A stretch of 64,000 bases of DNA from Patescibacteria group bacterium (GTDB lineage: Bacteria > Patescibacteriota > Patescibacteriia > UBA10025 > JAHIVO01): NCBI GenBank assembly GCA_041650915.1, contig JBAZKE010000001.1, forward strand, positions 187,284 to 251,283, read 5' to 3'. A program made the position numbers and the translations under genes. Position 1 is the stretch's first letter; the number at the start of each line of letters is the position of its first letter. The notes below the pieces were generated by a model. That model made no database searches. It had not been told where the DNA came from and saw only the letters and a list, made by a program, of their open reading frames with translations. Below are positions 16,401-58,246 of the stretch, piece by piece.

Positions 16401-16409
16401 ATAGTGTTA

Positions 16410-22110: not shown

Positions 22111-22187
22111 GGGCGGTTAGCTCAGCTGGCTAGAGCGTCTGCTCGACACGCAGGAGGTCAGTGGTTCGAGTCCACTACCGCCCACCA
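22111..22187 (+). tRNA. tRNA-Val (GAC)
   Basis: gggcggttagctcagctggctagagcgtctgctcGACacgcaggaggtcagtggttcgagtccactaccgcccaCCA. The anticodon loop is tcGACac and CCA is encoded. Confidence 0.7.
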
Positions 22188-22202
22188 TTGTATCCGATAT
22201 CT

Positions 22203-22856
22203 ATGAGACTATCATTTGGGCGCGGTGAAACCCGCGACAGGAAGATTCAAGAAGAGAAGAGGCTGCAGCGCGCTTCAGACGTGCCTGCATTTGCCGAGTC
22301 TCCGAAGAAGTTCATCTTCGAGCTTCTCAAGATCGTACTCATCGCCCTCGCGGTGATCATCCCCGTCCGCTACTTCTTGTTCCAGCCTTTCTACGTGCGG
22401 GGGGCGTCGATGGAGCCGTCATTCCATGATAATGAATATCTGATCATCGATGAGATTACGTATCGGTTTGCAGACCCGCAGCGCGGAGAGGTGGTCGTGG
22501 TCAAGAATCCGGACCGCACCTCGGAGTTTTTTATCAAACGCATCATCGGTTTGCCCGGCGAGACAATTGAGGTAAAAAACGGCGACGTGGTAATTTTTAA
22601 TTCGAGCAAGCCGCTCGGCTTCATTCTTGAAGAACCGTATCTTTCTGAGGAAGTCGTCACGAGAGGCGGGCAACGCACGACACTCGGGCCGGACCAGTAC
22701 TTCGTCATGGGTGATAACCGGTCAGTGAGCCTGGACTCGAGAACCTTCGGCCCGCTTAATTCGTCCTTTATCGTCGGCCGGGCGTGGCTCAGAGTGTGGC
22801 CGTTTGAAGAATTTGAACACTTTACCCCGCCAGCCTATAACTTAAACGGAGCATAG
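22203..22856 (+). CDS. lepB: Signal peptidase I
   Basis: TM anchor, then the catalytic Ser box 'RGASMEP', 'KRIIGLPGE' and 'GDNRSVSLDSR' boxes. The six-frame ORF start at 22161 overlaps the tRNA, so the ATG at 22203 is preferred. Confidence 0.85.
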   Translation: MRLSFGRGETRDRKIQEEKRLQRASDVPAFAESPKKFIFELLKIVLIALAVIIPVRYFLFQPFYVRGASMEPSFHDNEYLIIDEITYRFADPQRGEVVVVKNPDRTSEFFIKRIIGLPGETIEVKNGDVVIFNSSKPLGFILEEPYLSEEVVTRGGQRTTLGPDQYFVMGDNRSVSLDSRTFGPLNSSFIVGRAWLRVWPFEEFEHFTPPAYNLNGA

Positions 22857-25580: not shown

Positions 25581-28500
25581 ATGGGTATAGAGAATAAAAA
25601 AAGTTTTCTCCGTGGATTTTCGGCAAGCCTCATCGTTGGCGCGTTTCTGCTGCTGCCGCTCTTTTTTGGCATGAGTAACCCGGTCCACGCGCAGGCTGGC
25701 GTTTCCGGCGAGCTCGGCGCAACATTCGGGCTCGGCACTGCCGACCTCATGTCAACCGTGATCAGCATAGTCCAGTGGTTTCTCGGCTTCCTCGGCCTCA
25801 TTGCCGTCATCATGATCCTGTACGGCGGATTCCTATGGATGACTGCCCGCGGTGATGTGGCGCGGATCGACAAGGCGAAGAAAGTCATCCAGCGGGCGAT
25901 TATTGGGCTCATTATCGTCCTGCTCTCGTGGTCTATCGTAACGTTTATATATAAGGTAGTTAGCGACGCGACAAGTACCCCGCCGCTGCCCGCACACTGC
26001 TCAGATGGCATCCAGAATTTCGATGAAACCGGCGTTGACTGCGGCGGCGTTGACTGCTTGCCGTGCGGGCATATCTTGCCGACCGACGATTTTGAGTGGG
26101 ATGAGAATGAGACATCCTTTGCATCAGGCGGAGACTATGCAACAGACGTAAACCGCTGCAGCCGCATCCAAGCGCTCTTCAACCACAATGTTGACCAGGC
26201 GAGCGTTGATGCGCTCTGGGCGCCTGACAATTCCGGTGAAATATTCGTTGAAGGCTTTACGCCGGTAGGCAGCGTCGAGTGGGTGACCTCCGGGAAGATG
26301 CTCACCTTCAAGCATGATGACGATCTGCTGGGATCGGATCTCGGGCCTGTCGGGTACCGCCTCTGGATGCCGAAAGCGGTTCGGGATACGGATGGATCCG
26401 GCATACTGCTCGAGACCATTTCTACTGGTGTTTCCGGCGAGGGCACCAATCCGCATGGCGGCGGCACGCCGAATGATGCGTTCTATTGGGATTTCCAGAC
26501 CGGCACCGAGATTGACGATGTCATGCCGACTATTACCGATACGTATCCAATATCTGATCTGGCGAGCCCGTGGTATCCGGACCAGAGTGTTGTCCGCGCT
26601 CCCGAAATCGAGATCAGTTTCAATGAGGCGATTGATGCAACGACGATCTATGGGGCGGGTGGGCACCCGATCGCGGGAAATTTTGTGCTCGAGGAGCTCG
26701 CGAGCTTCGGCGGTGCGGTCGTCGGAACGGTACCCGATGCAAATCTCGGGGTAGAGATGATGGCGCAGGGCTTCCGTATCCGGATGGTACCGCCAAATCT
26801 CCTCGAGTCCTGGACATGGTACCGGATCACGATTGATCATATCGAAGACCTCTGCGGCAATCCGATGCCAGGCCCATACGTGTGGGAGTTCCAGACGACC
26901 GACCTCGCACCGGGCGTTTCCGGGTACTACCCGACCGGTTCGAGCGAGTGCCCCGATGTTATTCCCACGATCGTATTCAATACGCAGATGTTCAGTGACC
27001 TTGTCCACATTGAAATAAACGGCTCAGACGGATCGCAATACATCGCTGAAATGCGCCCCTCTAATATTAATCCCGCATCCAATCCGAATTTTATACTTGG
27101 GACGCTGCCTGGCTCCCCGAATATGGGGTACCTGCAGGTGGCCGACCATGCCATGCCGGTTGATAATCGGTTCCGTGTTTTTGAATTCCATCCATCTGAT
27201 ATCGTTTATAATCCTGTCCCCTTGAGCACAAACACAACGTATACCGTCGATGTGACGACTGATAAGCTCATCGATGTTTCCACATACCTGTCGCAGAGCT
27301 GGTCGTTTACTACGGCCGATGCAGCTTCGTGCACCTGTGCGCCGTTTATCACGAGCATAAGCCCGAATGCCGGCCCCCGGGGAGAGTGCATCACGGTACA
27401 TGGGCCGTGCTTCCAGGGCACTCCCGCCAATCCCGCGTCGATTACCAGTTTTACTTTCGTTGATCCTTATGATGGTATCCCTGGCGTTACGACCGCAACG
27501 CCGGACGGTTCAGGGCCGACGTACGTCGCGACCACGCTTCCGCTCGCGTTCAACGACGGAGATTTTGCGCGGCCCCAGATCGAAATTACCTACGATCCGC
27601 CGTCTTCGTTCGGTACCGTGGCGAGCAGCAACGCGAGCGTGGATTACTACGTAGCGACGCCTGATACCGCAACCGGTCCGTGCCTGTTTGGTATTAATCC
27701 GTCATCGGGTTACCACGGAACCGGCGTTAGCCTGACGGGCACCCGCTTCAATCCGACGAGTTCGCTCAAGCGGGTGAATTTCACAGGCGATTTCCAGACC
27801 CTGACGAGCTGGTACGATGATTGGGCAACGACGACCGTACCGGGCGGCGCGGCGTACGGCATCAACCAGGTCAGTATTGAGAATGATGCCGGCCCGAGCA
27901 ATAAAGTTCCTTTTGAAGTGTCTACCATCCCTCCCAACGAGCCGGTCGTCATCAACCACTACCCGATCTGCCAGGACGTGTGCCCCACTGCGCAGGTCGG
28001 CGGTACCATCAGCCTCAACGTGACCGCCAGCATGCTGTACGGCCCGGCGAGTACTGTCCGGCTGTACGAGTGCACGGATGCTACCTGTGCTTCACTGACC
28101 TTCGTTCCGGCAGCTGACGTGGTGTTTACAACTTCTCTTATCGGGGGCAATACCGATTTCAGCATAAACCACAGCACGGGATGGGCGGTGGATACGAACT
28201 ACCGCGTAGTCCTTACGAACGCGATCCAGAGCAGCACGGGGGGTTACCTCTCAACCGTCAACTATACCGATCCGTTTTCCGGTGAGCTCGCGTACTCGTG
28301 GACCTTTAAGACGAAGCCCGATGCCGCAGGGTGCGTTATGGAGACCGTTGAAACAATTCCACCGACGGCCTCCGAGCCGGTTGGAGTGCATATTGATTAC
28401 GTAGCGAACGCGCGGACCGCACCGGACTCGTGCGATCCGTCTGGCCAAATCCTCAATGCAAATCTTTTCACCTGGACTTGGGCTGTTGACGATCCGCTCA

Positions 28501-31500
28501 GCCGTGCTCCAGTTCCGGCGTCGGTTGATGCGTCGGTTGCCATTCCGCCTAATCTTAATGTTGCGATCGCTACCACGGTCGAGCCGACAGGCACCGACCC
28601 GGTATTTATCGAGCCGACGGCAACGGACGGCGCGGTGACCGAAACCGGAAGCGGCGAGCTCAACGTAACGACCGATCCGCCGCCGGTGCCTCCATCGCCT
28701 GCAGTTGTCAACCATTATCCGACGTGCGGTGATGTCTGTCCAAACGGCCAGATTGGCGGCGCAATAAGCCTCAATGTTGCCGCGAGCATGGTGTACGGAG
28801 GCGGCAGCACGGTGCGGCTGTACGCATGCGCCGACGCTTCGTGTGATCCGGGTTCGCTCACGCCGGTTGCGCCCGGCGACGTGGTATTTAACGCAACGTA
28901 CGACGGCTCGTCCGTAACTAATTTTAGTATCAATTCCGCAACCACGTGGCCCGCTGACCAGAACTACCGGGTATTTTTATCCGGAGCGATCGCCGATGCG
29001 GTAAACGGAATGTTGTTATCGGGCCTCAACTGGACCGATCCGCTCGACGGTGTTTCGGGCTACACGTGGCAATTCAAGACAAAAGCTGGCGCGGGAGCAT
29101 GCTCGCTGGAATCTGTTGAAACAATTCCGCACGTGTTTTCATTGCCAGAGACGATGACCCATAATTACTACGCAAATGCCCGTTCGCTTCCGGACTCGTG
29201 CGATCCGGCGGGCCAGATCCTCGATCCAAATCCGCTCATATGGTCGTGGGATATACGCGATCCGCTCTCACGGGTGCCCGCAGTCGCCTCAGTCGACGCT
29301 TCGGCTGCCGTGCCCGCTAACCTCAACCACGCGGTTGCTACTGCAATCCACAGCACGGTAGCGGATCCCGTCTATGTACGGGCACAGGCGACAGATCCAG
29401 GAGCGCCGGTTACGCATGAGGGCGAAGGTGAGTTTACCATAACGGCAGACCCTCCGCCGATACCGCCCTCGCCGATGGTTGTGAACCACTACCCCACGTG
29501 CGGAGATGTATGCCCGAACGGCTTGGTCCGCGGCACCATTACCCTCGATGTGCTCGCGAGTTTGTCATACGCACCGGCAGGAACCGTCCGCTTGTACTCG
29601 TGTTCTGATCCCGCATGTGCACCGGGTACGATGACATTCGTCCCCGCAGCAGATATCAATTTCGTACCGACCGTCAACGGTGGCAATACTGATTTTGAGA
29701 TAAACCACAGCACCGGCTGGGCAGCGGATACGGGCTACCGCGTTTTTCTCGCCGCGGGGATCACTGATGGCGTTGAAACGCTCGCAAGCATCAATTATAC
29801 CGATCCGGCGGACAGCACTCCCGGCTACTCCTGGACGTTCAAAACAAAGCCTGGCGCTGGCGCGGTGTGCTCCCTCCAGTCCGTTGAGACCGTGCCGAGC
29901 AGCTTGATTCTTGCTGAGACTGAATCTTACAACTATTACGCAAATGCGCGTTCGCTACCAGACTCGTGCGATCCGGCAGGCCAGATCCTCGATCCGAATC
30001 CGCTCACGTGGGTTTGGGACGTCAGGGATCCGCTCCTCCGCGCACCGGTACCTGCCATAGCTGATGCGGTGCCGGCGGTTCCGCCGAATTTGAACCATGC
30101 AGTCACGACCGCGGTCGCCGGTACAGGTGCGAATCCAGTCTATATACGGGCACAGGCTACTGATCCTGGATCGGCTGTTACGCACGAGGATGAGGGCACA
30201 CTCAGCGTTTCGGCAGGGCTTCCCCCGGATCCCCAACCGCCGACCGTCATTGACCGGAACCCGCTCTGCAACGATGTCTGCCCGAACGGCTTGATCCGCG
30301 GCACGATAAGCCACGACGTTGCAGCGAGCATGGCGTACGGCTCCGGCAGTACGGTGCGGCTGTACTCCTGCTCAGACCCGAGCTGTGCCCCGGGAACTCT
30401 CACGATTGTGCCGGATGCCGACATTACCTTTACTGTGACGGTGAATGGCGGCAATACTGATTTTGAAATCAACCACGCGTCGGGGTGGACTCCTGATACG
30501 GGCTACCGCGTGTTTCTGTCGCAGGGAATCACGGATGGAGTACGGAATTTGGCGAATCCAAACTGGTCAGATCCGTTCGACGGCACCTCAGGCTACTCAT
30601 GGGTATTCAAGACAAAACCGGGCGCGGATGCATGCGTGCTTGAAACGGTGGACATGGTCCCATCGATCGCGAGCGAGCCTGCATCGGTAACTATCAGCTA
30701 CTACGCGAATGCCCGTTCACTCCCGGATTCGTGCGATCCCGCCGGCCAAATTATTGATCCCTATACGTTCACCTGGACATGGAATATCAATGATCCGCTC
30801 GCACGCGTGCCTATCGTTGCCTCTGTCGATGCGTCGACTGTCGTGCCGCCGAACTTGAACCACGCTCTCACAACTACGCTCGAGCCGACGGGAACCGACC
30901 CGGTCACCGTCGAAGCCAATGCGCAGGTCGGCGCACTCTCGAGGACGGGCAGCGGTGAGCTCAACATTACCACCGATCCGCCTCCTACTGACCCATATCC
31001 GACCGTTGTCCTTTGGTACCCCGAGTGCCAGGACGTGTGCCCCAATGCGCAGGTTGGCGGGCGGATAACCCTCGACGTGGGCGCCTCGATGTCGTATACC
31101 GCACAGAGCGATACGGTACGGCTCTATACTTGTTCTGATCCAACCTGCGGTCCCGGCACGATGACGTACGTCGGTCCCGGTATGGTAACGCTCACTGCGA
31201 GCTACATTGGCGGTAATACTGAGTTTGCCGTTAATGCACTTGCAAACTGGCCTGCCGATACGTACTACCGCGTGTTCCTTTCCCGCGATATCGTCGATGC
31301 AACGTATGGACATACGCTCGCCAGCCTCAACTGGTCAGACCCTTTTGACAGCACGCCGGGATACTCATGGACATTCAAGACAAAAGCAGGATCCGATCCC
31401 TGCGCACTCGAAACAGTCGAGACGCTTCCCCCGTACGCTTCAACGACGCTCGGTGTGAATGTCACATACCTAGCGAATGGCCGGACCTTGCCTGACTCCT

Positions 31501-34500
31501 GTGATGCAGCAGGCCAGATACTGAATCCGGCTGGCTTGTCCTGGACGTGGTCGTATAATGATCCCTTTGGCAGGCCAGGTTTGCCGCTTGCGACGGTTAT
31601 CCAGGACAGCCTCAATCATGCCCACGCGATCCCGGTTGCGCGGACAAATTTCCAGCCGGTGCAGGCAGTCGCGGGCGCGACGCAGGGCGGTCCGATTGTA
31701 TCTGGAGCCGGCAATCTTGATATACTCGACTGCACGGATAATACGTTCTGCCGCGACCACTGCTTTGCGCTTACCGGGGTGCCCAATAGCTCTACTTGTG
31801 ATCTCGCGACAGGCAGCTGCACGCCGGTTGTCACCTCTCTGGTCCAGAACCAAGGCCCGATTGATACCTCGTTCAGCGTCAACGGCTGCTACTTCGGCGC
31901 AACGAGGGATGATGGCGCGGTTATGTATTATACGGCCGCTCAACCCGGTGGAGTTGCAGCTGCCTTGCTCTGCGGTGATGTCGGCTGGTCCGACAACCAG
32001 ATCATTGCCAGCATGAGCCTCAATCCGGCTCTGTATAGCGCTGGAGATGTCGTCACGGTTTCACCGAGAACGGGAAGCATATACGGCGCCCTAAGCCCGA
32101 ATCCAGGGGATACGGAAGAATTCACCTTGAGCGATGAGTGTATCCCGGGAGTGAGCGTCCCATCCGGCGGCATGCCGATACTCTGCCAGGTTGTGCCAGG
32201 CACGGCTGCATTAGGGCAGGATATATCGCTCGATGGGTTTAATTTCGTTGGGGCGATATCCAGCGCCGCACAGTTTTATACTGGTTCCGGTGTGCCGCCC
32301 TATACGCCTGGAGTTGCCGGATCATTTGTCGCGGCTGTCCCGCCGTATGAGGATCGGTATTCAAATGTGACGGTTCCCGGAGCAGCAGTGAGCAGCGCTA
32401 CGCTCGGCGTGCGGATGCTTGTCGATAGCTGTCCATCCAATCCAGTTGGCTTTGGCGTGCGGTGCGACGACGATACTGACTGTACGGTGCCCGGATACCA
32501 GTGCTGTGCATTCGATCCGGGGCACGGCGAGAATGTTTGTTCCCTTGATGCACTGTGCAGCTCCGGCGGGCCTGGAGATCCGTGTACCGATGGCGCTGTC
32601 TGCCCGGTTGGCCCGTCGTGTATTGATCCCGCTAACTATTCATGCCTGACCGACGGTGGCGACTGTAACTGCTGCTGCGCTCCGGGGCAGGTGAGCACGA
32701 CCGGGCTCGATTGCGTGACAAACCAGGCTCCCTGTGATGGCGGCACCCGCGGGTTGTACTGCGGGTGCACGAGTGACGCTGACTGCGGTAATCCGGCAAC
32801 TATCGGCTGCTCTCCCGTGGCGCCGAACTGCTGCTACCAGCGTCCGCGCGTAGTAACCGCGCAGTCAACGCCGCTACCTGGCGCGCCAAATGTATGCCTC
32901 AACGCAGGGATGATCGTCGTATTCGATCAAGCAATGGATAACAGTACGCTTATAGCGGGTAACATTATTCTGCAGGATGTAACCGGGAGCACATCGAGAG
33001 CCATCACCGTCACTGGGATGGGGGACCGCGCCCTTGTGCATCCGGATGCGCTGCTAGAGTCAAACCACGTACATAGGATTGTCATACTCGGACAGCCCCT
33101 CGGGGGGGTTCGTTCTGCACGACAGATTGCCTTGGCCGGCGCGGGTTTAAACTATGATTATAATTCAGACGGTGTCCTCGACAGCTTCGCGTGGACGTTC
33201 ACGACCCGGTTGAACACGTGCGCTATTACTGGATACTATATGCGGGCAGGCTGGGCCACTGGATCGGATTTTGATCCGCGGGTAACTCCCGTCAGCTTCA
33301 ATTGCGCTCACGATACGTGCTTCAACGACCGCAATACAACACATCCAGGCAACAATATTCACGTCTATGCCTACCCGCTCGATGAGAACGGCAACTACGT
33401 TGCCGATTCAATCATTTCCTGGTCAGAATTTGATCCGTCGAATGCCCTGCTTTTGGAAGATCCGGTTTTTCCTCCTGATCCGCCGTCCCCGAATGGCATC
33501 AACCACTATCTGACTGCGCAGAACAGCACTGGCATGGTAACCGTTACTGTAACGGCAAACTCTCCGTCGTCCGGCACCTACAGTGAGAATTTTGAGGTCA
33601 ACGTCGACCTCTGTACCGCGCCGTGGCCTGATGTGTGGGCAGGAGATGACTACCCATTTGTGGATGATACCGGCAATCCCACCCACGAAACACAGTTTTC
33701 CGTGTCGTACTGCCGTGAACCGGGAGGGCTGCCCCTGCTCAATTCGCCGTCCGTTGCGATCATTGATGAGAATGTTCCGAGTGAGCCGGGGAGAGATGAG
33801 CTCCTTAAAGAATTTTTCTTCCTCAGGGCTGGCATAGCTGATGCGATCGGCATCCGGGTCATGGAGAATGAGGGCGGAAAATCGCCTCGCGACTGGTACT
33901 TTCAGCAGTTTGGGCCGTCCGCTCCTGAGCCGCAGGCGCTCACTATCGACGGGTATCCGGCAGTCCGGTCCGGCAGGACGGTGTACGTGACCGCGTGGAA
34001 TGTTGATCTCGGCACCGGTATCATATACCCGAACGTCTACCTCATGTCGTACAGCGACGGGGCATCTGCTGAGACGATTGAGATATACAACAGGATGCTC
34101 GCAAACTGGCGCTTTAATGCGAACCTCACCGCAACTGAAAAAGCGCAGCTTCAGCGCGATATGAAACGCGTGAGCGACCTGAGCGATATCTTCAACAAAC
34201 TCCTCGACTATAAGGCGGCGCATGGCACGTTTCCACTGCTCGAGGGGGGGACTTTTATCAACGGGGTCAGCACGTCGCGGTGGCCATCATGGCAGGAAAC
34301 ACTCGGCGCCGCAGCGGGGATTACGCTGCCGGTGGATCCGCTCAATAACCTGTCTCCAATCACCGCATGCCCGTCGCCGCCATTTGACCAGCAGACCTGC
34401 TGGGATGATGCCGGCAAAGTGTACGTTACCCCGGCCAGTTCACACATCTATTTGTACCGCGCCAGTTCGAGCGGGGACGTCGCGAATCTGTACGCGCGCC

Positions 34501-36749
34501 TTGAGCGTATCTGGTACGATGGCGGTGTAGACTTGTTCATGTGGGCCGGAGCGCCGGTCTTCAACCCGTGCGTTGGCATTCCCAATGCTACGTGCAATGC
34601 CTTCAACTACGCGCACCTCCTGTCGGGGAGCGCAAGCGACCATACGCCGCCGGTTTTCTTGTGGGCGCACGCGGATGGCTTCACGTTCCTTCCCGATGTC
34701 GGGCCGCCACCGCCGACCCTCCCGGGAGTCAATCCGCTGATTACAGCTTCGTTTATTGACGATATGGAGCTTGCGTATGCTGAGTTTTACATTGACGGGA
34801 TTCTCCGCCATACGTCACCGGTGGAAGCAGGCTTCTTCTACCAGTGGGATGGGTTTGTGCAGACAGATTTTTCCGAGCAGGTGCATAATTTTATGATCAG
34901 GGGCTACGATACTGCGGGCAACTATTCGGATGCGAGCGCGGACATCCAGATCACGCACAATTTCGGAGATACGACCCCGCCCTTTATACAGTTCATTAAC
35001 CCTCTCGATGGCACTACGGTATCGGGCACGGTTCAGGTCCGGGTAACGGGCAGTGATAACAGGCAGATCACGTCATTCCAGCTTGATGTGACTTGCACGG
35101 GCGGCCCTTCGTTCGGGCCCATACCGCCAGTTCCGAATCCGCATACGATTTCGTACAGTTGGGATACGACATCCCAGCCAAACGGCCCCTGCTCGCTCGA
35201 GGCGACGATCTATGACGGCACAAATCCGCCTGTCGTCGCAGCGGTTACCGTGAATATCGATAACCAGGATACGGTTGAGCCGGCCGTAACCCTGACGAGC
35301 GCCCCGGGAACGTGCGCTGCCGACGGTGCAGCCTGCAATATCAGCGTGCCGTGCGCGAACACGGTATGCGACGGCGGATCGAATGACCGCGCCGCCTGTT
35401 CCGGTCCGGCTGATTGCGATACGGGCATCCCGTGCACGCCAATCTGCGAACGTTCGGGTGTCGTTCCGGTCCAGGTAACGGCGACCGATAACCAGGCGGT
35501 CACGAGGGTTGATTTCCTTGTCGATGGCATTGTGCAGGACCAGGGAACGGAGATCGGGCCAAATACCTATGAGTGGCTATGGGATACGCGGATTTACTCG
35601 AACGGCGACCATACGCTCTCGGTGAATGCCTACGATGCTTATAGTAACAGCGGCGGTTTGAGCGTCCAGTACCGCCTGTGGAATGCCGAGCAGGATTCGG
35701 TCCCGCCAACCGTGTCTTTCGTTTCACCTCCGACCCCGGTTTACGGCTCGTCGGTCGATAATACGATAACGGTTGAAGTTGATGCTCTCGACAATCCGGG
35801 CGGTTCAGGCGTGCAAAGGGTTAACTTTTACCTCGATTACGTCTGGAAAGCTGCGGATGCGACAGCCGGGCCGTATTCATGGAACCTCGACACGCTTCCC
35901 ATCTCCGATGGCTGGCACAGAATCCAGGTTGATGCGGTCGATAACAATGGCAACCGCAGCGAGAGCATAGAAATACGGGTTGAGGTTCGCGGCACGGGGG
36001 GTCCGCTCATAACGTATGCGCTCGTGACGCCCTGCAGCGGCGGCCAGTTTACGCCGTTCAACTTTACGGCTGTCGTGACGGATCCGGATGGCGTGAGCAG
36101 GGTGGAAGCGATCATCCAGCAGCCGGATAATGTTCCGATTGACCGGTCTACCATGACTGATGCCGGCCTGGATACGTACATCGGATCTTGGAATTCCGGC
36201 ATCCACGAGGGGACATTCTTTGTTGATATTGAAGCCGAAGACGCGGCAGGGAATATTAGCTGGCTCGATAACATTGAGTGCACGGCAGTGCCCTGTGCCG
36301 TGAACGGAGATGCGTGTAGTGCCGCTTCGGACTGTTGCAGCGGTTACTGTGGCGGCGGCGGCATCTGTGCAGAGCCACCCGCCTGCCTGCCGAATGGGAA
36401 TGCATGTACGGCTAACGGGGATTGTTGCAGCAACTACTGCGATAGTGGGGGGTCGAACCAGTGTGAAGACCTGCCCTCACCCCCGACATGCCCTGACGGG
36501 AATTGTGATGTAGGCGAGGATCCGGATACATGCCCTGCTGATTGCGGGAGCAATTGGTCGGTGTACCTGTGCCATACTCAATTTGGGGAAGTACACGTGA
36601 TCAGCTCGTGGTGTGATACATCCGCAGCTTGCTCTAATCCCGGACCGCCACGGTGGGAGTGCGAAGCATCCGATCCGGCAAATCATGCGTGTCTCAATCC
36701 CGCAAGCCCCGTGGTGTGCTGCATGGTTGATGTAAACTGTGCAATATAG
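25581..36749 (+). CDS. Giant cell-surface protein (3722 aa) with signal peptide, VirB2/TrbC-like double-TM N-terminal anchor, tandem Cys-bearing beta-repeat modules, knottin-like Cys modules and Ig-like C-terminal domains
   Basis: Uninterrupted 11,169-nt ORF. N-terminus has a signal peptide (…PVHA|QAG) followed by two hydrophobic helices separated by a basic loop (…FLWMTARGDVARIDKAKKVIQRAIIGLIIVLL…). Five ~255-aa repeats each contain NHYPxCxDVCPNxxxGG…TVRLYxCxDxxC…GGNTDFxINH…YRVFL…GYSWxFKTK…YYANARSLPDSCDPAGQILDP. C-terminal CxxxxxxCxxxxxCCxxxCxxxxxC modules and Ig-like segments (PPTVSFVSPP…) follow. Confidence 0.8.
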   Translation: MGIENKKSFLRGFSASLIVGAFLLLPLFFGMSNPVHAQAGVSGELGATFGLGTADLMSTVISIVQWFLGFLGLIAVIMILYGGFLWMTARGDVARIDKAKKVIQRAIIGLIIVLLSWSIVTFIYKVVSDATSTPPLPAHCSDGIQNFDETGVDCGGVDCLPCGHILPTDDFEWDENETSFASGGDYATDVNRCSRIQALFNHNVDQASVDALWAPDNSGEIFVEGFTPVGSVEWVTSGKMLTFKHDDDLLGSDLGPVGYRLWMPKAVRDTDGSGILLETISTGVSGEGTNPHGGGTPNDAFYWDFQTGTEIDDVMPTITDTYPISDLASPWYPDQSVVRAPEIEISFNEAIDATTIYGAGGHPIAGNFVLEELASFGGAVVGTVPDANLGVEMMAQGFRIRMVPPNLLESWTWYRITIDHIEDLCGNPMPGPYVWEFQTTDLAPGVSGYYPTGSSECPDVIPTIVFNTQMFSDLVHIEINGSDGSQYIAEMRPSNINPASNPNFILGTLPGSPNMGYLQVADHAMPVDNRFRVFEFHPSDIVYNPVPLSTNTTYTVDVTTDKLIDVSTYLSQSWSFTTADAASCTCAPFITSISPNAGPRGECITVHGPCFQGTPANPASITSFTFVDPYDGIPGVTTATPDGSGPTYVATTLPLAFNDGDFARPQIEITYDPPSSFGTVASSNASVDYYVATPDTATGPCLFGINPSSGYHGTGVSLTGTRFNPTSSLKRVNFTGDFQTLTSWYDDWATTTVPGGAAYGINQVSIENDAGPSNKVPFEVSTIPPNEPVVINHYPICQDVCPTAQVGGTISLNVTASMLYGPASTVRLYECTDATCASLTFVPAADVVFTTSLIGGNTDFSINHSTGWAVDTNYRVVLTNAIQSSTGGYLSTVNYTDPFSGELAYSWTFKTKPDAAGCVMETVETIPPTASEPVGVHIDYVANARTAPDSCDPSGQILNANLFTWTWAVDDPLSRAPVPASVDASVAIPPNLNVAIATTVEPTGTDPVFIEPTATDGAVTETGSGELNVTTDPPPVPPSPAVVNHYPTCGDVCPNGQIGGAISLNVAASMVYGGGSTVRLYACADASCDPGSLTPVAPGDVVFNATYDGSSVTNFSINSATTWPADQNYRVFLSGAIADAVNGMLLSGLNWTDPLDGVSGYTWQFKTKAGAGACSLESVETIPHVFSLPETMTHNYYANARSLPDSCDPAGQILDPNPLIWSWDIRDPLSRVPAVASVDASAAVPANLNHAVATAIHSTVADPVYVRAQATDPGAPVTHEGEGEFTITADPPPIPPSPMVVNHYPTCGDVCPNGLVRGTITLDVLASLSYAPAGTVRLYSCSDPACAPGTMTFVPAADINFVPTVNGGNTDFEINHSTGWAADTGYRVFLAAGITDGVETLASINYTDPADSTPGYSWTFKTKPGAGAVCSLQSVETVPSSLILAETESYNYYANARSLPDSCDPAGQILDPNPLTWVWDVRDPLLRAPVPAIADAVPAVPPNLNHAVTTAVAGTGANPVYIRAQATDPGSAVTHEDEGTLSVSAGLPPDPQPPTVIDRNPLCNDVCPNGLIRGTISHDVAASMAYGSGSTVRLYSCSDPSCAPGTLTIVPDADITFTVTVNGGNTDFEINHASGWTPDTGYRVFLSQGITDGVRNLANPNWSDPFDGTSGYSWVFKTKPGADACVLETVDMVPSIASEPASVTISYYANARSLPDSCDPAGQIIDPYTFTWTWNINDPLARVPIVASVDASTVVPPNLNHALTTTLEPTGTDPVTVEANAQVGALSRTGSGELNITTDPPPTDPYPTVVLWYPECQDVCPNAQVGGRITLDVGASMSYTAQSDTVRLYTCSDPTCGPGTMTYVGPGMVTLTASYIGGNTEFAVNALANWPADTYYRVFLSRDIVDATYGHTLASLNWSDPFDSTPGYSWTFKTKAGSDPCALETVETLPPYASTTLGVNVTYLANGRTLPDSCDAAGQILNPAGLSWTWSYNDPFGRPGLPLATVIQDSLNHAHAIPVARTNFQPVQAVAGATQGGPIVSGAGNLDILDCTDNTFCRDHCFALTGVPNSSTCDLATGSCTPVVTSLVQNQGPIDTSFSVNGCYFGATRDDGAVMYYTAAQPGGVAAALLCGDVGWSDNQIIASMSLNPALYSAGDVVTVSPRTGSIYGALSPNPGDTEEFTLSDECIPGVSVPSGGMPILCQVVPGTAALGQDISLDGFNFVGAISSAAQFYTGSGVPPYTPGVAGSFVAAVPPYEDRYSNVTVPGAAVSSATLGVRMLVDSCPSNPVGFGVRCDDDTDCTVPGYQCCAFDPGHGENVCSLDALCSSGGPGDPCTDGAVCPVGPSCIDPANYSCLTDGGDCNCCCAPGQVSTTGLDCVTNQAPCDGGTRGLYCGCTSDADCGNPATIGCSPVAPNCCYQRPRVVTAQSTPLPGAPNVCLNAGMIVVFDQAMDNSTLIAGNIILQDVTGSTSRAITVTGMGDRALVHPDALLESNHVHRIVILGQPLGGVRSARQIALAGAGLNYDYNSDGVLDSFAWTFTTRLNTCAITGYYMRAGWATGSDFDPRVTPVSFNCAHDTCFNDRNTTHPGNNIHVYAYPLDENGNYVADSIISWSEFDPSNALLLEDPVFPPDPPSPNGINHYLTAQNSTGMVTVTVTANSPSSGTYSENFEVNVDLCTAPWPDVWAGDDYPFVDDTGNPTHETQFSVSYCREPGGLPLLNSPSVAIIDENVPSEPGRDELLKEFFFLRAGIADAIGIRVMENEGGKSPRDWYFQQFGPSAPEPQALTIDGYPAVRSGRTVYVTAWNVDLGTGIIYPNVYLMSYSDGASAETIEIYNRMLANWRFNANLTATEKAQLQRDMKRVSDLSDIFNKLLDYKAAHGTFPLLEGGTFINGVSTSRWPSWQETLGAAAGITLPVDPLNNLSPITACPSPPFDQQTCWDDAGKVYVTPASSHIYLYRASSSGDVANLYARLERIWYDGGVDLFMWAGAPVFNPCVGIPNATCNAFNYAHLLSGSASDHTPPVFLWAHADGFTFLPDVGPPPPTLPGVNPLITASFIDDMELAYAEFYIDGILRHTSPVEAGFFYQWDGFVQTDFSEQVHNFMIRGYDTAGNYSDASADIQITHNFGDTTPPFIQFINPLDGTTVSGTVQVRVTGSDNRQITSFQLDVTCTGGPSFGPIPPVPNPHTISYSWDTTSQPNGPCSLEATIYDGTNPPVVAAVTVNIDNQDTVEPAVTLTSAPGTCAADGAACNISVPCANTVCDGGSNDRAACSGPADCDTGIPCTPICERSGVVPVQVTATDNQAVTRVDFLVDGIVQDQGTEIGPNTYEWLWDTRIYSNGDHTLSVNAYDAYSNSGGLSVQYRLWNAEQDSVPPTVSFVSPPTPVYGSSVDNTITVEVDALDNPGGSGVQRVNFYLDYVWKAADATAGPYSWNLDTLPISDGWHRIQVDAVDNNGNRSESIEIRVEVRGTGGPLITYALVTPCSGGQFTPFNFTAVVTDPDGVSRVEAIIQQPDNVPIDRSTMTDAGLDTYIGSWNSGIHEGTFFVDIEAEDAAGNISWLDNIECTAVPCAVNGDACSAASDCCSGYCGGGGICAEPPACLPNGNACTANGDCCSNYCDSGGSNQCEDLPSPPTCPDGNCDVGEDPDTCPADCGSNWSVYLCHTQFGEVHVISSWCDTSAACSNPGPPRWECEASDPANHACLNPASPVVCCMVDVNCAI
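27930..31760 (+). repeat. Intragenic tandem array of 5 units of ~765 bp (252-258 aa)
   Basis: Anchor motif aaccactaccc/aaccattatcc (NHYP) recurs near 27954, 28710, 29484, 30250 and 31010. Unit lengths are 756-774 bp and units are diverged (~50-65% aa identity). Confidence 0.7.
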
Positions 36750-36847: not shown

Positions 36848-38479
36848 ATGAACAAAAAAAATAAGCTGATTGGGGTTGCGGCACTGGGGGCATGCCTGGT
36901 ACTCTTTGGCTACGGGGCGTATGCCGCATCCGAAGTCGGGTCTGAACCGACGTTCGAAGTCGATACATCACTGCCCTACGGCCCCGAATTGACCGGAGGT
37001 TTTACCATCTCTCCGCCGCAGGTTGATCCTGGCCAGCCGGTCGAGTTTTCCGCGGGTGTCTACGATCAGTCAGGCGTAAAATCCGTGTACGTCGACATTG
37101 TTTCTCCGGCGACTGACACAACGCTCAAGTCAATAGAACTGCTCGACGACGGTTCGAATGATGACGGTACGGCCGGCAACAATGTTTTTGGCAGAGGATG
37201 GGATACGAGCGGGATGAGCGTCGGTGTCTATACGGTTCGGCTGAGAATGGCTGACAAGCTGGATAACCTCAATACGCAGGATGCGGGGTACATCGCACTC
37301 GGTGAAGGCGGGTGCCTGCACGACGATGAATGCACGTCACCCGAACGCTGCTGCTACGGAGTATGCGTAAGCAATGCATGCTCGACGGATGCCGACTGTG
37401 ACGATGCAGATGATGCCACGCTCGATCGCTGCAATACGGTTGATGTCTGCCCGGCGTACTGTTCAAATAACGTATTGCCATGCGTGGGCGGAGACGGCGT
37501 CTGCCCCCCGGGATGCGGTGAAGATGCGTGGGAGTGCGTCGGCGGTGACTATAATGGTATTGCGTGCGATCCCGCTGACAGCGAGAGCTGTGGCGGTCCA
37601 TCATCGGGGAGCGTCTGCACGTTGATTGAGGCTGATTCGGACTGTACGGTAGATACGACGGCACCCGTCGTGTCTGTCCAGACCCCGGGAGATTCAGAAA
37701 CAATTGATGGAAATACCTACACTGAGTATGAGGTTACCGTTACGGCATCTGATCCGGAATCGAATATCGCGCAGGTTCGCTTTTTGCTCGATGGAACTGA
37801 GCAGTCAGTATGGCTCGGCGACCCAGCTCCCGGAACGGGGCTGTATACCTGGATTATGCCTGTCGGGCCGCTCACTGAGGGGGCTCACACTATCATTGCC
37901 GAAGCAGAGAATGGCATCGGGACACTCAGCGAGGACGGGGTATCCTTTATCTACACTGCTCCTACGTCGAGCGTTGCCCCGACAGTGAGCATTACTGCCC
38001 CTGCGAACGGCGCTACGGTTACGGGAAGCACGACCGTTGATGTGACGGCGACGGATGACGGCCTCGTCAATGAGGTTAGCTTTTACCACTGCGTTGTCGG
38101 CCTGCAGGATTCTGATTCGAGCTTTACGCCCGCCTCGACGGTTAATGTAACGCTCAACTCCTGGAATGCGACAAGCACCGCAACCGCCCTGCTCGAAAAT
38201 TACATTATGCCGTTTGCCGCGTTGCAGCAGGACGTGAAGAAGTTCAAGCTGCCGTTCGTACCGGTTGCGCATGCGGCAGATGATTCGAACTGTACCACGA
38301 CAACAACGACTCGCAACTATACGCAGTGCATCTATGCCATGGCCATTGACGACGACAGCCTTGTCGGTACCAGTGCGTACGTTTACGTGACCACTCCGAT
38401 TACGACAACAACGACAAGCTGCACGACCACAAATCGCATGGACACTCCGTCTAGTGCGTCCAGCAGCTCGGCAATCTAG
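36848..38479 (+). CDS. Secreted surface protein, paralogous in module content to the C-terminal part of the upstream giant protein
   Basis: 543 aa. Signal peptide (LGACLVLFGYGAYAAS), a knottin-like Cys module (CLHDDECTSPERCCYGVCVSNAC…) and Ig-like domains (TAPVVSVQTPGDSE…, APTVSITAPANGATVTGS…). RBS AAAGGAG upstream of the start. Confidence 0.7.
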   Translation: MNKKNKLIGVAALGACLVLFGYGAYAASEVGSEPTFEVDTSLPYGPELTGGFTISPPQVDPGQPVEFSAGVYDQSGVKSVYVDIVSPATDTTLKSIELLDDGSNDDGTAGNNVFGRGWDTSGMSVGVYTVRLRMADKLDNLNTQDAGYIALGEGGCLHDDECTSPERCCYGVCVSNACSTDADCDDADDATLDRCNTVDVCPAYCSNNVLPCVGGDGVCPPGCGEDAWECVGGDYNGIACDPADSESCGGPSSGSVCTLIEADSDCTVDTTAPVVSVQTPGDSETIDGNTYTEYEVTVTASDPESNIAQVRFLLDGTEQSVWLGDPAPGTGLYTWIMPVGPLTEGAHTIIAEAENGIGTLSEDGVSFIYTAPTSSVAPTVSITAPANGATVTGSTTVDVTATDDGLVNEVSFYHCVVGLQDSDSSFTPASTVNVTLNSWNATSTATALLENYIMPFAALQQDVKKFKLPFVPVAHAADDSNCTTTTTTRNYTQCIYAMAIDDDSLVGTSAYVYVTTPITTTTTSCTTTNRMDTPSSASSSSAI

Positions 38480-38510: not shown

Positions 38511-39158
38511 ATGACTGATAAAGATACAAAACAAGTCGAAGATATTTTCGCTGAAGCTGATTCTGGGGGCACTGCACGCAGTGCCCCCCAGAAAAAAGCG
38601 CCGGTAAAACCAATTGCACAGCCGGCACCGGCCGCACGGGAAGTGAGAAATATCCAGCCGACAGCCAATCGTCCGCAGTACCGGAAGACGAAGATTATGC
38701 TAATAGTGCTTTTGAGCGCTGGGGCGCTCATCGTCGTCGGCGGCGGTGCAGTGCTCGTGACAAGCGGGGTATTCTCCGGTGAAAATGCGAACAGCACTCC
38801 CGCAACGAACAGTGCGGCAACGGACGGGTCCGCACCGACGGTTAATGTACCGACGAACAGCTCCGGGACGGTACGGCTGCAGAAAGTAGATTTGAGTTTG
38901 CAGCCGGTTGATACGGATAGTGACGGACTCACCGATGCAGAGGAAGCTGAGCTCGGCACGGATATCCGCACGGTTGACACGGATGGCGACGGCCTCTATG
39001 ACCGTGAGGAGGTTCGGGTATACGGTACGGATCCCCTGCAAACCGATACAGATCAGGATGGCATTGTTGACGGGACCGAGGTTGCAAACGGGTATGATCC
39101 TTCCGGACCGGGGATGCTGCTCGATTTGGATGCTGCAATTGAGAGGCTTCAATCTTAA
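38511..39158 (+). CDS. Single-pass membrane protein with thrombospondin-type-3/dockerin-like Ca2+-binding repeats
   Basis: 215 aa. Cytoplasmic basic N-terminus, one TM helix (IMLIVLLSAGALIVVGGGAVLV), a Thr/Asn-rich linker, then DTDSDGLTDAEE / DTDGDGLYDREE / DTDQDGIVDGTE repeats. Confidence 0.65.
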   Translation: MTDKDTKQVEDIFAEADSGGTARSAPQKKAPVKPIAQPAPAAREVRNIQPTANRPQYRKTKIMLIVLLSAGALIVVGGGAVLVTSGVFSGENANSTPATNSAATDGSAPTVNVPTNSSGTVRLQKVDLSLQPVDTDSDGLTDAEEAELGTDIRTVDTDGDGLYDREEVRVYGTDPLQTDTDQDGIVDGTEVANGYDPSGPGMLLDLDAAIERLQS

Positions 39159-39181
39159 TATGCTTTATTAATACCTTTGGT

Positions 39182-47432: not shown

Positions 47433-47439
47433 CAATTTA

Positions 47440-48176: not shown

Positions 48177-48204
48177 CACGTCAGTGATGAAAGAGGACAA
48201 CCAC

Positions 48205-58245: not shown

Positions 58246-58246
58246 T

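What the first reader, a model, noticed from the sequence alone, without database searches (positions are those of the whole stretch)
25581..36749. 11.2-kb gene for a 3722-aa modular surface protein with no recognisable catalytic domain
One uninterrupted ORF occupies 17% of the window. Its parts are a signal peptide, a double-TM hairpin, an N-terminal beta-rich region with IPT/TIG-like CTC…C segments, five tandem ~255-aa Cys-bearing repeats, a middle alpha/beta domain (…AGIADAIGIRVMENEGG…), Ig-like domains and knottin-like Cys modules. Proteins of this size in small-genome episymbionts are thought to mediate host-cell attachment, and I could not match this domain combination to any characterised adhesin family.
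Basis: partly seen in the sequence, partly recalled or inferred. Interest (0 to 1): 0.8.

Follow-up and report, generated by a model that had tools for sequence, protein, structure and literature searches.

The report
Giant pilin-anchored surface fibre protein
This is a real 3,722-residue cell-surface protein of an ultra-small Patescibacteria bacterium, rooted in the membrane by a conjugative-pilus-type (VirB2-like) pilin module. It belongs to a large, unstudied family that may be how these bacteria hold on to other cells.

Summary
The ORF is real: 25581-36749 (+), 3,722 aa, no internal stops, found identically in independent public assemblies. NCBI calls it "Ig-like domain-containing protein", Patescibacteria.

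- **The "double-TM hairpin" is a VirB2/TrbC-type pilin module.** It passes Pfam's own threshold for PF18895 (T4SS_pilin). It is 42-73% identical to stand-alone ~117-aa pilins.
- **The "middle alpha/beta domain" defines a family.** It has no Pfam model but occurs in at least 1,462 protein clusters. A confident AlphaFold model shows a DcrB/PsbP-like half joined to a half resembling the pseudopilin GspG.

Full-length orthologues (31-41% identity) sit at one conserved chromosomal site (yqeY | giant | TSP3-repeat membrane proteins | ybeY-dgkA-ftsA-ftsZ). Every genome I could classify is class ABY1.
- In 13 of 75 relatives the gene is split into a pilin-anchored stalk and a separately secreted head.
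- The 255-aa unit occurs 1-3 times in relatives and five times here.

My best reading is a pilin-rooted, roughly 100-nm fibre of Ig-like modules used for cell contact. Adhesion, and any incorporation into a type IV secretion pilus, are inferred, not shown. There is no homology to RTX, Bap, LapA or LPXTG adhesins. I rate it a new variant of known kinds.

The parts
25581..36749 (+). Whole gene: 3,722-aa modular pilin / giant surface protein
   Evidence: Uninterrupted ORF. The identical protein is in NCBI, JGI, ENA and Logan assemblies.
25581..25697 (+). Sec-type signal peptide (aa 1-39; predicted signal peptidase I site AQA|G)
   Evidence: A hydrophobic segment centred at aa 18-26. Ala37 of the cleavage motif is invariant in the family alignment A3. 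The cleavage itself is inferred.
25746..25949 (+). VirB2/TrbC-type pilin hairpin (aa 56-123): TM1, basic loop MTARGDVARIDKAKKVIQR, TM2
   Evidence: PF18895 T4SS_pilin scores 37.4 bits on the whole protein and 43.3 bits on the domain alone, against a cut-off of 26.6. TrbC/VirB2 PF04956 scores E=2e-4. The hairpin is 42-73% identical to stand-alone pilins.
25998..26066 (+). Small 4-Cys motif just outside TM2 (CSDGIQNFDETGVDCGGVDCLPC)
   Evidence: Read directly from the sequence. The first ~209 aa align with orthologues at 40-45% identity. Function unknown.
26133..27320 (+). Big_5 (SbsA-type) Ig-like modules (aa ~185-580)
   Evidence: Pfam PF13205, E=1.9e-32 on the whole protein; several stretches when segments are scanned.
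27330..27923 (+). Two IPT/TIG modules (aa ~584-781)
   Evidence: Pfam PF01833, 28.1 bits against a cut-off of 20.9, two stretches.
27924..31745 (+). Five tandem ~255-aa repeats (aa 782-2055), each with 6 Cys and probably two beta-sandwich modules
   Evidence: Units are 48-61% identical as protein and 56-65% as DNA. DNA spacing between units is 756-774 nt. Relatives carry 1-3 copies, the first at the same position.
31746..32429 (+). Beta-rich, IPT-like region (aa 2056-2283)
   Evidence: No Pfam hit above threshold. It is collinear with orthologues. The fold was not tested.
32430..32834 (+). Cys-rich cluster (aa 2284-2418)
   Evidence: Cys positions. No Pfam hit.
32862..33680 (+). Big_5 module plus a beta-rich linker ending in the conserved pre-head motif (FSVSYCRE)
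   Evidence: Big_5 E=1.4e-6. The pre-head motif is present in about 60% of family hits. In L013 the gene split lies exactly here.
33783..34112 (+). Head domain, N-terminal half (aa 2735-2844): DcrB/PsbP/LpqN-like alpha/beta fold
34113..34577 (+). Head domain, C-terminal half (aa 2845-2999): head resembling a type IV pilin or the pseudopilin GspG, without the hydrophobic N-terminal helix
34698..36260 (+). Big_7 / Big_3_3 / Big_13 Ig-like modules (aa ~3040-3560), with a Cys-rich insert at aa 3245-3289
   Evidence: Big_7 E=1.4e-31 with four stretches; Big_3_3 at 31.2 bits; Big_13 at 27.2 bits.
36279..36746 (+). C-terminal Cys-rich knobs (aa 3567-3722), including two copies with a knottin-type Cys framework
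   Evidence: The spacing C-x6-C-x5-CC-x3-C-x5/7-C is read from the sequence. Toxin_27 and Toxin_19 score E about 0.01-0.02, below cut-off. Maurocalcin scores E=0.27.
36848..38479 (+). Conserved downstream gene: 543-aa secreted Big_7 and Cys-rich protein
   Evidence: Big_7 E=2.3e-16. It is 27% identical to the giant protein's C-terminal modules. It sits at the same position in 9 loci.
38511..39158 (+). Conserved downstream gene: 215-aa single-pass membrane protein with bacterial TSP3 (Ca-binding-type) repeats
   Evidence: TSP3_bac E=1.4e-13. A member of this gene family follows the head-domain gene in 42 of 64 loci.
39182..40318 (+). Conserved downstream gene: 378-aa single-pass membrane protein with TSP3 repeats and a region like the N-terminal half of the head domain
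   Evidence: TSP3_bac E=1.6e-4, below Pfam's cut-off. hhalign against the head-domain profile gives probability 67%, E=5e-5.

Best explanation
The gene encodes a 'modular' VirB2-type pilin that forms a giant cell-surface fibre.

**How it is made and held.** A Sec signal peptide is removed. The two-helix pilin hairpin then sits in the cytoplasmic membrane with its basic loop facing the cytoplasm and both ends outside. The remaining 3,599 residues (379 kDa, pI 4.1, 120 Cys) are therefore extracellular.

**What the extracellular part is.** It is a chain of roughly 25-30 beta-sandwich-sized modules:
- Big_5 modules, IPT/TIG modules, five duplicated 255-aa units, and Big_7 modules.
- Cys-knot clusters that punctuate the chain.
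- One strongly conserved 'head' domain: a DcrB/PsbP-like half plus a half resembling the pseudopilin GspG.

**What it probably does.** It would project on the order of 100 nm from a cell about 200-300 nm across. The conserved pilin module roots the fibre. The conserved head most likely docks to partner proteins encoded at the same locus, the TSP3-repeat single-pass membrane proteins. The fast-evolving Ig modules, the lineage-specific repeat expansion and the Cys knobs would make contact with the outside, most plausibly another cell.

**Shown:** the ORF, the topology signals, the domain homologies, the family, the synteny, the gene fission and the variation in repeat number.
**Inferred:** signal-peptide cleavage, extended length, head-partner docking and adhesion.
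For: **Pilin module.**
- PF18895 scores above its cut-off here and in 16 of 16 family N-termini. TrbC/VirB2 PF04956 matches 8 of 16.
- The whole protein has only three hydrophobic segments, all N-terminal, and the loop between the two helices is basic.
- In the solved T-pilus both VirB2 termini face outward and the loop carries the lumen-facing Arg (10.1101/2022.09.25.509369).
- The pilin module (40-61% identity) and the head (about 50-55% to the best hits) are more conserved than the rest of the protein (24-41%).

**Extracellular Ig-like chain.**

**Head domain.**
- It occurs in 1,462 clusters.
- The model is confident.

**Family and locus.**
- 75 of the 149 other best hits carry both the pilin module and the head.
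- 245 species-level genome hits carry, wherever the title is informative, Patescibacteria-type names. All seven that I could look up are GTDB class ABY1.
- Synteny is conserved.
- 13 of 75 loci are split into a pilin-anchored stalk and a head protein with its own signal peptide. This shows the stalk and head are separable parts of one system.
- A TSP3-repeat membrane protein follows the head-domain gene in 42 of 64 loci, and one of them carries a paralogous half-head domain.
- Repeat copy number varies from 1 to 5.
Against: - No experiment or expression data supports any step.
- Adhesion is argued only by analogy with other giant Ig-repeat proteins.
- The locus is core-genomic, vertically conserved and adjacent to ftsA/ftsZ. 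That is unusual for a host-specificity adhesin and fits a structural envelope role.
- The head-partner docking is inferred only from gene adjacency and one weak hhalign match (probability 67%).
- The repeat unit, the Cys clusters and most linkers have no structural model.
- The pilin module might do more than anchor (see the first rival explanation).
Confidence: 0.55

Rival explanations
1. **Minor or tip pilin of a type IV secretion pilus.** The type IV secretion machinery of Patescibacteria extracts the N-terminal pilin module from the membrane. The module then co-polymerises with the ~117-aa stand-alone pilins. The 3,600-aa chain hangs off the outside or tip of a conjugative-type pilus as its adhesin.
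For: - The hairpin is 42-73% identical (median 66%) to the best-matching stand-alone pilins. It keeps all residues that are invariant across the family alignment.
- Its conservation exceeds what a passive anchor needs.
- VirB2 termini face outward in assembled pili.
- Some relatives have arrays of a bare 123-aa pilin, a mid-size pilin-Ig protein and the giant protein side by side (L073).
- All five pilin-bearing genomes that overlap a published census have VirB4.
- That census found no separate adhesin in Patescibacteria type IV secretion systems (PMC12102498). Pilin arrays are essential for epibiotic growth in Southlakia (PMC10633639).
Against: - No VirB4, VirB6 or VirD4 gene lies in the 64-kb window or in any of 75 related 20-kb loci.
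- In a related genome the stand-alone pilins are scattered among housekeeping genes.
- Most ABY1 genomes have VirB4 anyway, so the co-occurrence is weak evidence.
- No conjugative pilin with a large grafted domain is known to me or was found in six literature searches.
- A 379-kDa appendage on a subunit of a five-start helical pilus is sterically demanding.
Confidence: 0.25
2. **Structural envelope component.** The protein is an S-layer-like or sheath scaffold, or a spacer. Together with the TSP3-repeat membrane proteins it builds or stabilises the cell envelope. It is not a host adhesin.
For: - The locus is conserved and vertically inherited between yqeY and ybeY-dgkA-ftsA-ftsZ in most of the genomes that carry the pilin-fused (giant or split) form.
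- Head-domain proteins also occur without a pilin module, next to envelope-biosynthesis genes (GT2, YceG/MltG, PAP2).
- Big_5 is the SbsA-type Ig domain typical of S-layer proteins (my own knowledge of Pfam PF13205).
- The protein is acidic, and the partner proteins have Ca-binding-type repeats.
Against: - No SLH or other known S-layer anchoring domain was found.
- The sequence diverges very fast, and repeat number and gene architecture vary between related species. That is more typical of interaction surfaces.
- A protein this long is an expensive lattice subunit for a genome of about 1 Mb.
Confidence: 0.2
3. **Artefact.** The ORF is an assembly chimera of a repeat family, or a decaying pseudogene read through by chance.
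For: Only the a-priori risk that comes with an 11-kb repetitive gene in a metagenome-derived sequence.
Against: - The identical 3,722-aa product is found on at least 3 independent contigs.
- Repeat units share at most 19 identical bases in a row.
- The protein is collinear over its full length with orthologues of 2,700-3,700 aa.
- All six Cys of each unit are conserved in register.
Confidence: 0.01
4. **Divergent member of a characterised adhesin class:** a type I secretion RTX/LapA/Bap-type adhesin or a Gram-positive LPXTG/PrgB-type adhesin.
For: Size, repetitiveness, acidity and Ig-like modules resemble those proteins.
Against: - No HemolysinCabind/RTX, VCBS, cadherin-like, BapA or Gram_pos_anchor hit was found in Pfam or NCBIfam.
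- The C-terminus is Cys-rich and has no LPXTG motif or hydrophobic tail.
- Export is signalled at the N-terminus (Sec signal peptide plus hairpin), not by a C-terminal type I secretion signal.
- No relative with a solved structure was found by sequence.
Confidence: 0.01

Closest known systems
VirB2/TrbC-like pilins of Patescibacteria (Pfam PF18895 T4SS_pilin), including the essential pilin arrays of Southlakia epibionticum and TM7x
   Same: The N-terminal 125 aa is a full-length match above Pfam's cut-off. It has a signal peptide, two hydrophobic helices and a basic loop. It is 42-73% identical to stand-alone pilins. Relatives show tandem arrays of proteins carrying this pilin domain, like the arrays described in PMC12102498.
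   Different: Described pilins are about 100-150 aa. This one carries a 3,599-aa C-terminal extracellular part. The gene is not next to virB4 or other type IV secretion genes. Whether it polymerises is unknown.
Modular type IV pilins, e.g. Streptococcus sanguinis PilB (PMC8179133)
   Same: The same design principle: a pilin module with a functional adhesive module grafted onto its C-terminus, so the filament subunit is itself the adhesin.
   Different: It is an unrelated pilin class (type IV pilin with a class III signal peptide, versus a VirB2 hairpin). The grafted part here is about ten times larger. Incorporation into a filament is not shown.
Giant Ig-repeat surface adhesins (LapA, SiiE, Bap, Ebh; Giant1-5 of Apilactobacillus kunkeei, PMC12863079)
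   Same: More than 3,000 aa, acidic, with tandem beta-sandwich modules, lineage-specific repeat expansion and no catalytic domain.
   Different: There is no sequence homology. The export and anchoring logic differs: an N-terminal Sec signal plus a pilin hairpin, rather than type I secretion with a retention module or an LPXTG anchor. The protein is disulfide-rich (120 Cys). It contains a conserved non-Ig head domain.
Type II secretion major pseudopilin GspG/EpsG/PulG and type IV pilin head domains
   Same: The C-terminal half of the head domain has a long helix followed by a small sheet. It has a '...Y(K)..NG.YP...LP.DP.N' signature that aligns to GspG.
   Different: It is an internal domain. 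It lacks the prepilin signal peptide and the hydrophobic N-terminal helix, so it cannot polymerise as a pilin does. All the sequence evidence is below significance thresholds.
DcrB / PsbP / Mog1 / LpqN / SciW fold (small extracytoplasmic alpha/beta proteins)
   Different: There is no sequence-level match to the corresponding Pfam families. Here the fold is fused to a pilin-like half inside a giant protein.

Membership tests
PF18895 T4SS_pilin / VirB2-TrbC-type conjugative pilins | Profile-HMM score at or above the curated Pfam cut-off, over the full length of the model | tested here: met
   37.4 bits on the whole protein and 43.3 bits on the domain alone, against a cut-off of 26.6, covering model positions 4-71 of 71. 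TrbC/VirB2 PF04956 scores only E=2e-4 and 21.8 bits, below its cut-off of 27.9.
PF18895 T4SS_pilin / VirB2-TrbC-type conjugative pilins | Cleavable signal peptide followed by two hydrophobic helices joined by a short basic loop | tested here: met
   Three hydrophobic segments at aa 18-26, 65-82 and 110-120 (window centres). The loop is MTARGDVARIDKAKKVIQR. Cleavage itself was not tested.
PF18895 T4SS_pilin / VirB2-TrbC-type conjugative pilins | Small stand-alone subunit of about 100-150 aa | tested here: not met
   The protein is 3,722 aa. Its closest pilin relatives are about 117 aa.
PF18895 T4SS_pilin / VirB2-TrbC-type conjugative pilins | Encoded with type IV secretion machinery genes (virB4, virB6, virB3) | tested here: not met
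   None lies in the 64-kb window or in 75 related loci. VirB4 is present elsewhere in 6 of 7 overlapping genomes according to PMC12102498 Table S1.
PF18895 T4SS_pilin / VirB2-TrbC-type conjugative pilins | Polymerises with phospholipid into a pilus | not testable with these tools
   This needs cryo-EM or biochemistry, or at least multimer structure prediction.
Type IV pilin / type II secretion pseudopilin (GspG-like), for the C-terminal half of the head domain | Class III (prepilin) signal peptide and a hydrophobic N-terminal helix | tested here: not met
   The domain is internal (aa 2845-2999). There is no hydrophobic segment beyond aa 120.
Type IV pilin / type II secretion pseudopilin (GspG-like), for the C-terminal half of the head domain | Pilin head fold: a long helix packed on an antiparallel sheet | tested here: inconclusive
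DcrB/PsbP/Mog1-like fold, for the N-terminal half of the head domain | Fold-level similarity to solved members | tested here: met
RTX / LapA / Bap-type type I secretion adhesins | RTX nonapeptide, VCBS or cadherin-like repeats and a C-terminal type I secretion signal | tested here: not met
   No such Pfam or NCBIfam hit was found. The C-terminus is a Cys-rich knob.
LPXTG-anchored Gram-positive adhesins (MSCRAMM, PrgB) | C-terminal LPXTG motif, hydrophobic segment and basic tail | tested here: not met
   The protein ends ...VVCCMVDVNCAI. There is no C-terminal hydrophobic segment and no Gram_pos_anchor hit.
S-layer proteins | Cell-wall anchoring module (SLH or equivalent) and the ability to form a lattice | tested here: not met
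   There is no SLH hit. SbsA-type Big_5 modules are present. Lattice formation cannot be tested here.
Inhibitor cystine knot (knottin) modules | C-C-CC-C-C framework and a family-level match | tested here: inconclusive
   The framework occurs twice, at aa 3572-3596 and aa 3602-3628. Toxin_27 and Toxin_19 score E=0.013-0.019, below cut-off. Maurocalcin scores E=0.27.
Target protein of a diversity-generating retroelement | A template/variable repeat pair and a nearby reverse transcriptase | tested here: not met
   The gene shares no significant repeat with the rest of the window; the only outside copy is 57 nt at 61% identity, at the reporting threshold. No reverse transcriptase appears among the annotated ORFs.

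The most novel reading that the evidence does not exclude
Class ABY1 Patescibacteria build a conjugative-type (VirB2) pilus or stub in which some subunits are 'modular pilins'. Each of these carries a ~100-nm Ig-repeat adhesive fibre with a conserved docking head. This would be the first case of an adhesin grafted directly onto a type IV secretion pilin. It would also be the missing attachment device of the Patescibacteria type IV secretion system, which is essential for epibiotic growth in the one species tested.
Probability: 0.25. Interest if true: 0.85.

Novelty: new variant of a known kind. Interest (0 to 1): 0.62.

Why it matters
Patescibacteria make up a large share of bacterial diversity, and the cultivated ones live attached to other cells.

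- **The gap.** In the one genetically tractable species, the type IV secretion system and its VirB2-like pilin array are essential for epibiotic growth (PMC10633639). Nobody knows what the pilins do. The one genome-wide census found no adhesin associated with the system and treated VirB2 as a small protein (PMC12102498).
- **What this finding adds.** In one large class (ABY1) the pilin module is fused to extracellular parts of up to 3,600 aa. These carry a conserved, unannotated head domain, lie at a fixed chromosomal site and have fixed partner genes.
- **What becomes testable.** This gives concrete candidates for the cell-contact apparatus. It also gives a new domain (at least 1,462 clusters, no Pfam model) to characterise. 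The split stalk and head genes are a natural experiment on which parts work together.
- **If it is only an anchor.** Even then it documents a distinctive Patescibacteria way of displaying giant proteins on a single-membrane cell that uses neither sortase nor type I secretion.

Tried and rejected
**Searches and runs that failed or gave nothing useful**
- Searching the big protein index with the full-length protein timed out.
- The word-indexed search with the head domain found only 1 hit with the single sequence and 10 with the profile, because of candidate caps. The exhaustive HMMER search was needed.
- Single-sequence AlphaFold of the head domain was useless (pLDDT 35). It cost one of the two structure jobs, so the 255-aa repeat and the pilin module were never modelled.
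- The 22-sequence alignment was too diverse for the locus finder. A 5-sequence alignment worked.
- The afdb50 fold library was unavailable.
- A profile of the pilin module against PDB sequences gave only spurious 'Pizza' designer-protein matches and no VirB2 or TraA.
- PDB sequence searches with the N-terminal Ig region and the repeat profile found nothing. The C-terminal region gave only weak fibronectin-III-like and maurocalcin matches.
- Tandem Repeats Finder found nothing because the 765-nt period exceeds its 500-nt limit. The repeat finder did find the repeats.

**Ideas considered and rejected**
- Target of a diversity-generating retroelement: no template/variable repeat pair and no reverse transcriptase.
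- Polymorphic toxin or effector: no toxin or enzymatic C-terminal domain.
- Lipoprotein: no lipobox Cys in the signal peptide.
- Type IV pilus subunit assembled by the nearby PilM and PilT-like genes: no prepilin signal.
- The second type of locus holding head-domain proteins has no secretion or pilus genes, only envelope and housekeeping genes.

**Literature**
Six searches found no description of giant VirB2-fused proteins.
Full report
**1.

A single ATG-started ORF spans 25581-36749 on the + strand. It encodes 3,722 aa without a stop and covers 17.5% of the window.

It is not an assembly artefact.
- The identical protein is recorded on at least three independently assembled contigs. It is in NCBI as MFA5134324.1, 'MAG: Ig-like domain-containing protein [Patescibacteria group bacterium]'.
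- The five tandem units share only 56-65% DNA identity, with no identical run longer than 19 nt.
- The protein is collinear over its whole length with orthologues of 2,700-3,700 aa.

The surrounding genes are typical of the Candidate Phyla Radiation: ParAB, TopA, DprA, Mfd, PilM, a PilT-like ATPase, HisRS, S21, YqeY, YbeY, DgkA, FtsA, FtsZ, NrdR, a ribonucleotide reductase and ComEC.

**2. Anatomy**

The protein has only three hydrophobic segments: a signal peptide and two helices centred at aa 65-82 and 110-120, joined by the basic loop MTARGDVARIDKAKKVIQR. Everything after aa 123 is predicted to be outside the cell. That part is 3,599 aa, 379 kDa, pI 4.1, with 120 Cys and 0.8% Lys.

From the N-terminus to the C-terminus, Pfam and direct reading give:

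| Region (aa) | Content |
|---|---|
| 140-162 | 4-Cys motif just outside TM2 |
| ~185-580 | Big_5 modules |
| ~584-781 | two IPT/TIG modules |
| 782-2055 | five tandem ~255-aa units, 48-61% identical, six Cys each in register |
| 2056-2283 | beta-rich stretch |
| 2284-2418 | Cys cluster |
| 2428-2700 | another Big_5 module and a linker |
| 2735-2999 | the 'middle' (head) domain |
| ~3040-3560 | Big_7, Big_3_3 and Big_13 modules |
| 3567-3722 | C-terminal Cys knobs |

Two of the C-terminal knobs have the knottin-type framework C-x6-C-x5-CC-x3-C-x5/7-C. Their matches to knottin families are below threshold. No catalytic domain was detected.

**3. The hairpin is a VirB2-type pilin module**

- Residues 56-123 match Pfam PF18895 (T4SS_pilin) over the whole model. 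The score is 37.4 bits in the full protein and 43.3 bits alone, against a cut-off of 26.6.
- TrbC/VirB2 (PF04956) scores E=2e-4. An NCBIfam pilin-like conjugal-transfer family matches below its cut-off.
- All 16 family N-termini I aligned hit PF18895, and 8 of 16 also hit TrbC/VirB2.
- The best database relatives of this module are stand-alone ~117-aa proteins that NCBI and JGI name 'pilin' or 'TrbC/VirB2 family'. They are 42-73% identical over the hairpin, as close as the hairpins of other giant proteins.
- In the solved T-pilus, VirB2 is U-shaped. Both termini lie on the outside of the filament, and a basic residue in the loop faces the lumen (10.1101/2022.09.25.509369). A C-terminal extension is therefore compatible both with a membrane-embedded pilin and, in principle, with an assembled one.

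**4. The middle domain is a conserved, unannotated family domain**

- Pfam has no model for it.
- An exhaustive HMMER search of 1.84 billion cluster representatives found 1,462 proteins at E<=1e-3 and 677 at E<=1e-30.
- With a 22-sequence alignment, AlphaFold2 gave a confident model: pLDDT 84.6, pTM 0.82.
- Two independent weak sequence signals agree with the pilin-like half. A family profile finds GspG in PDB at E=1.6, aligned over '...YP...LPxDP'. T2SSG is the only Pfam family that recurs among the members, in 6 of 22 with best E=0.012.
- The domain has no hydrophobic N-terminal helix, so it cannot be a polymerising pilin.

**5. It is a family with a fixed genomic address**

- Of the 149 other best hits to the head domain, 75 also carry the same N-terminal pilin module.
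- A scan of one genome per species found 245 matching species. Wherever the record title is informative it names Patescibacteria lineages: Kerfeld-, Falkow-, Uhr- and Buchananbacteria and the 'Parcubacteria group'. The many 'uncultured Gammaproteobacteria' titles share the same synteny and look mislabelled.
- Seven of these genomes appear in a published table, and all seven are GTDB class ABY1.
- In 25 of the 75 fetched loci the pilin module and the head are in one ORF of 1,566-3,727 aa.
- The neighbourhood is conserved. In order it reads:
  - HisRS, HIT, S21, YqeY
  - zero to two smaller pilin-Ig proteins (123-970 aa)
  - the giant protein
  - a ~500-aa Big_7 protein
  - two single-pass TSP3-repeat membrane proteins
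  - YbeY, DgkA, FtsA, FtsZ
- In 13 loci the gene is split. A 1,544-2,238-aa pilin-anchored stalk protein is followed within 45 nt, or overlapped, by a head protein that has its own signal peptide. In L013 the break lies exactly in the conserved linker before the head.
- Head-domain proteins without any pilin partner also occur at a second conserved site, among envelope and housekeeping genes.
- A TSP3-repeat membrane protein follows the head-domain gene in 42 of 64 loci. All 90 members of that family have an N-proximal hydrophobic segment and a DxDxDx motif. The 378-aa copy in the window has a region resembling the N-terminal half of the head (hhalign probability 67%, E=5e-5).

**6. Repeat number varies**

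The 255-aa unit is a family element. In relatives its first copy starts at about aa 760-1030, most often near aa 780, and it is present 1-3 times. Only this protein has five copies. At 48-61% identity between units, the expansion is old rather than recent.

**7. What it most likely is and does**

The shown facts fit a pilin-rooted giant surface fibre.
- The conserved pilin hairpin (40-61% identical among orthologues, against 24-41% for most of the chain) roots it in the membrane.
- A chain of roughly 25-30 beta-sandwich-sized modules would reach on the order of 100 nm. I infer this from the length; about 14 modules have direct Pfam support.
- The conserved head probably docks to conserved partners. 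The co-inherited TSP3 proteins are the obvious candidates.
- The variable modules and Cys knobs face the outside.

I give this general model 0.55. Within it, host or partner-cell adhesion is the most plausible function, but it is untested.

Rival explanations:
- **(a) Pilus subunit (0.25).** The pilin module is actually assembled into a type IV secretion pilus, which would make this a 'modular conjugative pilin'. The pilin-level conservation, the arrays that include bare pilins, and VirB4 in all five overlapping pilin-bearing genomes favour it. The absence of any type IV secretion gene in the window or in 75 related loci, and the scattered bare pilins, count against it.
- **(b) Structural envelope scaffold (0.2).** The core-genome position next to ftsAZ and the Big_5 modules favour it. 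The absence of an S-layer anchor and the rapid architectural change count against it.
- **(c) Artefact, or a classical RTX/Bap/LapA/LPXTG adhesin.** Both are refuted.

**8. Comparison with what is known**

- It is a member of PF18895 by the Pfam criterion. It fails two features of described VirB2 pilins: small size and linkage to type IV secretion genes.
- It works like a giant Ig-repeat adhesin but belongs to none of the characterised families.
- The nearest concept is the modular type IV pilin, such as S. sanguinis PilB (PMC8179133), but in an unrelated pilin class.
- Six literature searches found no description of VirB2-type pilins with large grafted extracellular parts.
- The Patescibacteria type IV secretion census reported that no adhesins were detected and treated VirB2 as a small protein (PMC12102498).

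I therefore rate it a new variant of known kinds, of moderate-to-high interest (0.62). It offers concrete candidates for the cell-contact apparatus of a major uncultivated lineage, and a widespread new domain to characterise.

Noticed in passing
window 47405-47607 (+): A cobalamin riboswitch (Rfam RF00174, 63.6 bits) lies directly after the corrinoid adenosyltransferase gene (46887-47432). It precedes a DUF6580 membrane protein (47818-48738), which may be a B12-related transporter. A ribonucleotide reductase and NrdR lie just upstream.
   Followed up: no
window 56719-59107 (+): ComEC is encoded as two adjacent ORFs: Competence+DUF4131 at 56719-58245 and the metallo-beta-lactamase domain at 58247-59107. 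This is either a natural split or a frameshift.
   Followed up: no
window 15306-17483 (-): The type IV pilus genes PilM and a PilT-like T2SSE ATPase sit about 8 kb upstream of the giant gene on the opposite strand. Nothing found here links them to it.
   Followed up: partly
window 22111-22187 and 22161-22856 (+): The second tRNA-Val overlaps the mechanically listed GTG start of the signal peptidase I ORF. The real start is probably further downstream. Signal peptidase I is part of the conserved neighbourhood (12 loci).
   Followed up: no
window 38511-40318 (+); loci L001-L075: A family of single-pass membrane proteins with bacterial TSP3 (DxDxDx) repeats and long Asn/Thr-rich tracts follows head-domain genes in 42 of 64 loci. 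This holds at both kinds of locus. It looks like a conserved gene pair of unknown function.
   Followed up: partly
L015, L018, L020, L021, L026, L033, L035, L049 and others: Shorter proteins (270-1,130 aa) begin with a signal peptide followed directly by the head domain. They sit at a second conserved site: GT2, GT2, NTP-transferase, PfkB, PTAC, Fpg | head protein | PAP2, CAP, cytidylyltransferase, YceG. Some genomes carry two or three such paralogues.
   Followed up: partly
L003, L017-L019, L026-L032, L035, L036, L040, L041 and others: Many MAG records titled 'uncultured Gammaproteobacteria bacterium' (binchicken and SRP co-assemblies) carry this locus with the same synteny as records named Patescibacteria. 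The record titles look mislabelled.
   Followed up: no
L073 2736-15685 (+): This locus is a graded array. A bare 123-aa pilin, a 507-aa pilin-Ig protein and a 3,676-aa pilin+head giant lie in tandem. It could be a useful natural series for testing co-assembly.
   Followed up: partly
whole window: TGA is rare as a stop codon: 4 of 48 greedily called ORFs, against 26 TAG and 18 TAA. GC content is 50-59%, high for Patescibacteria.
   Followed up: no
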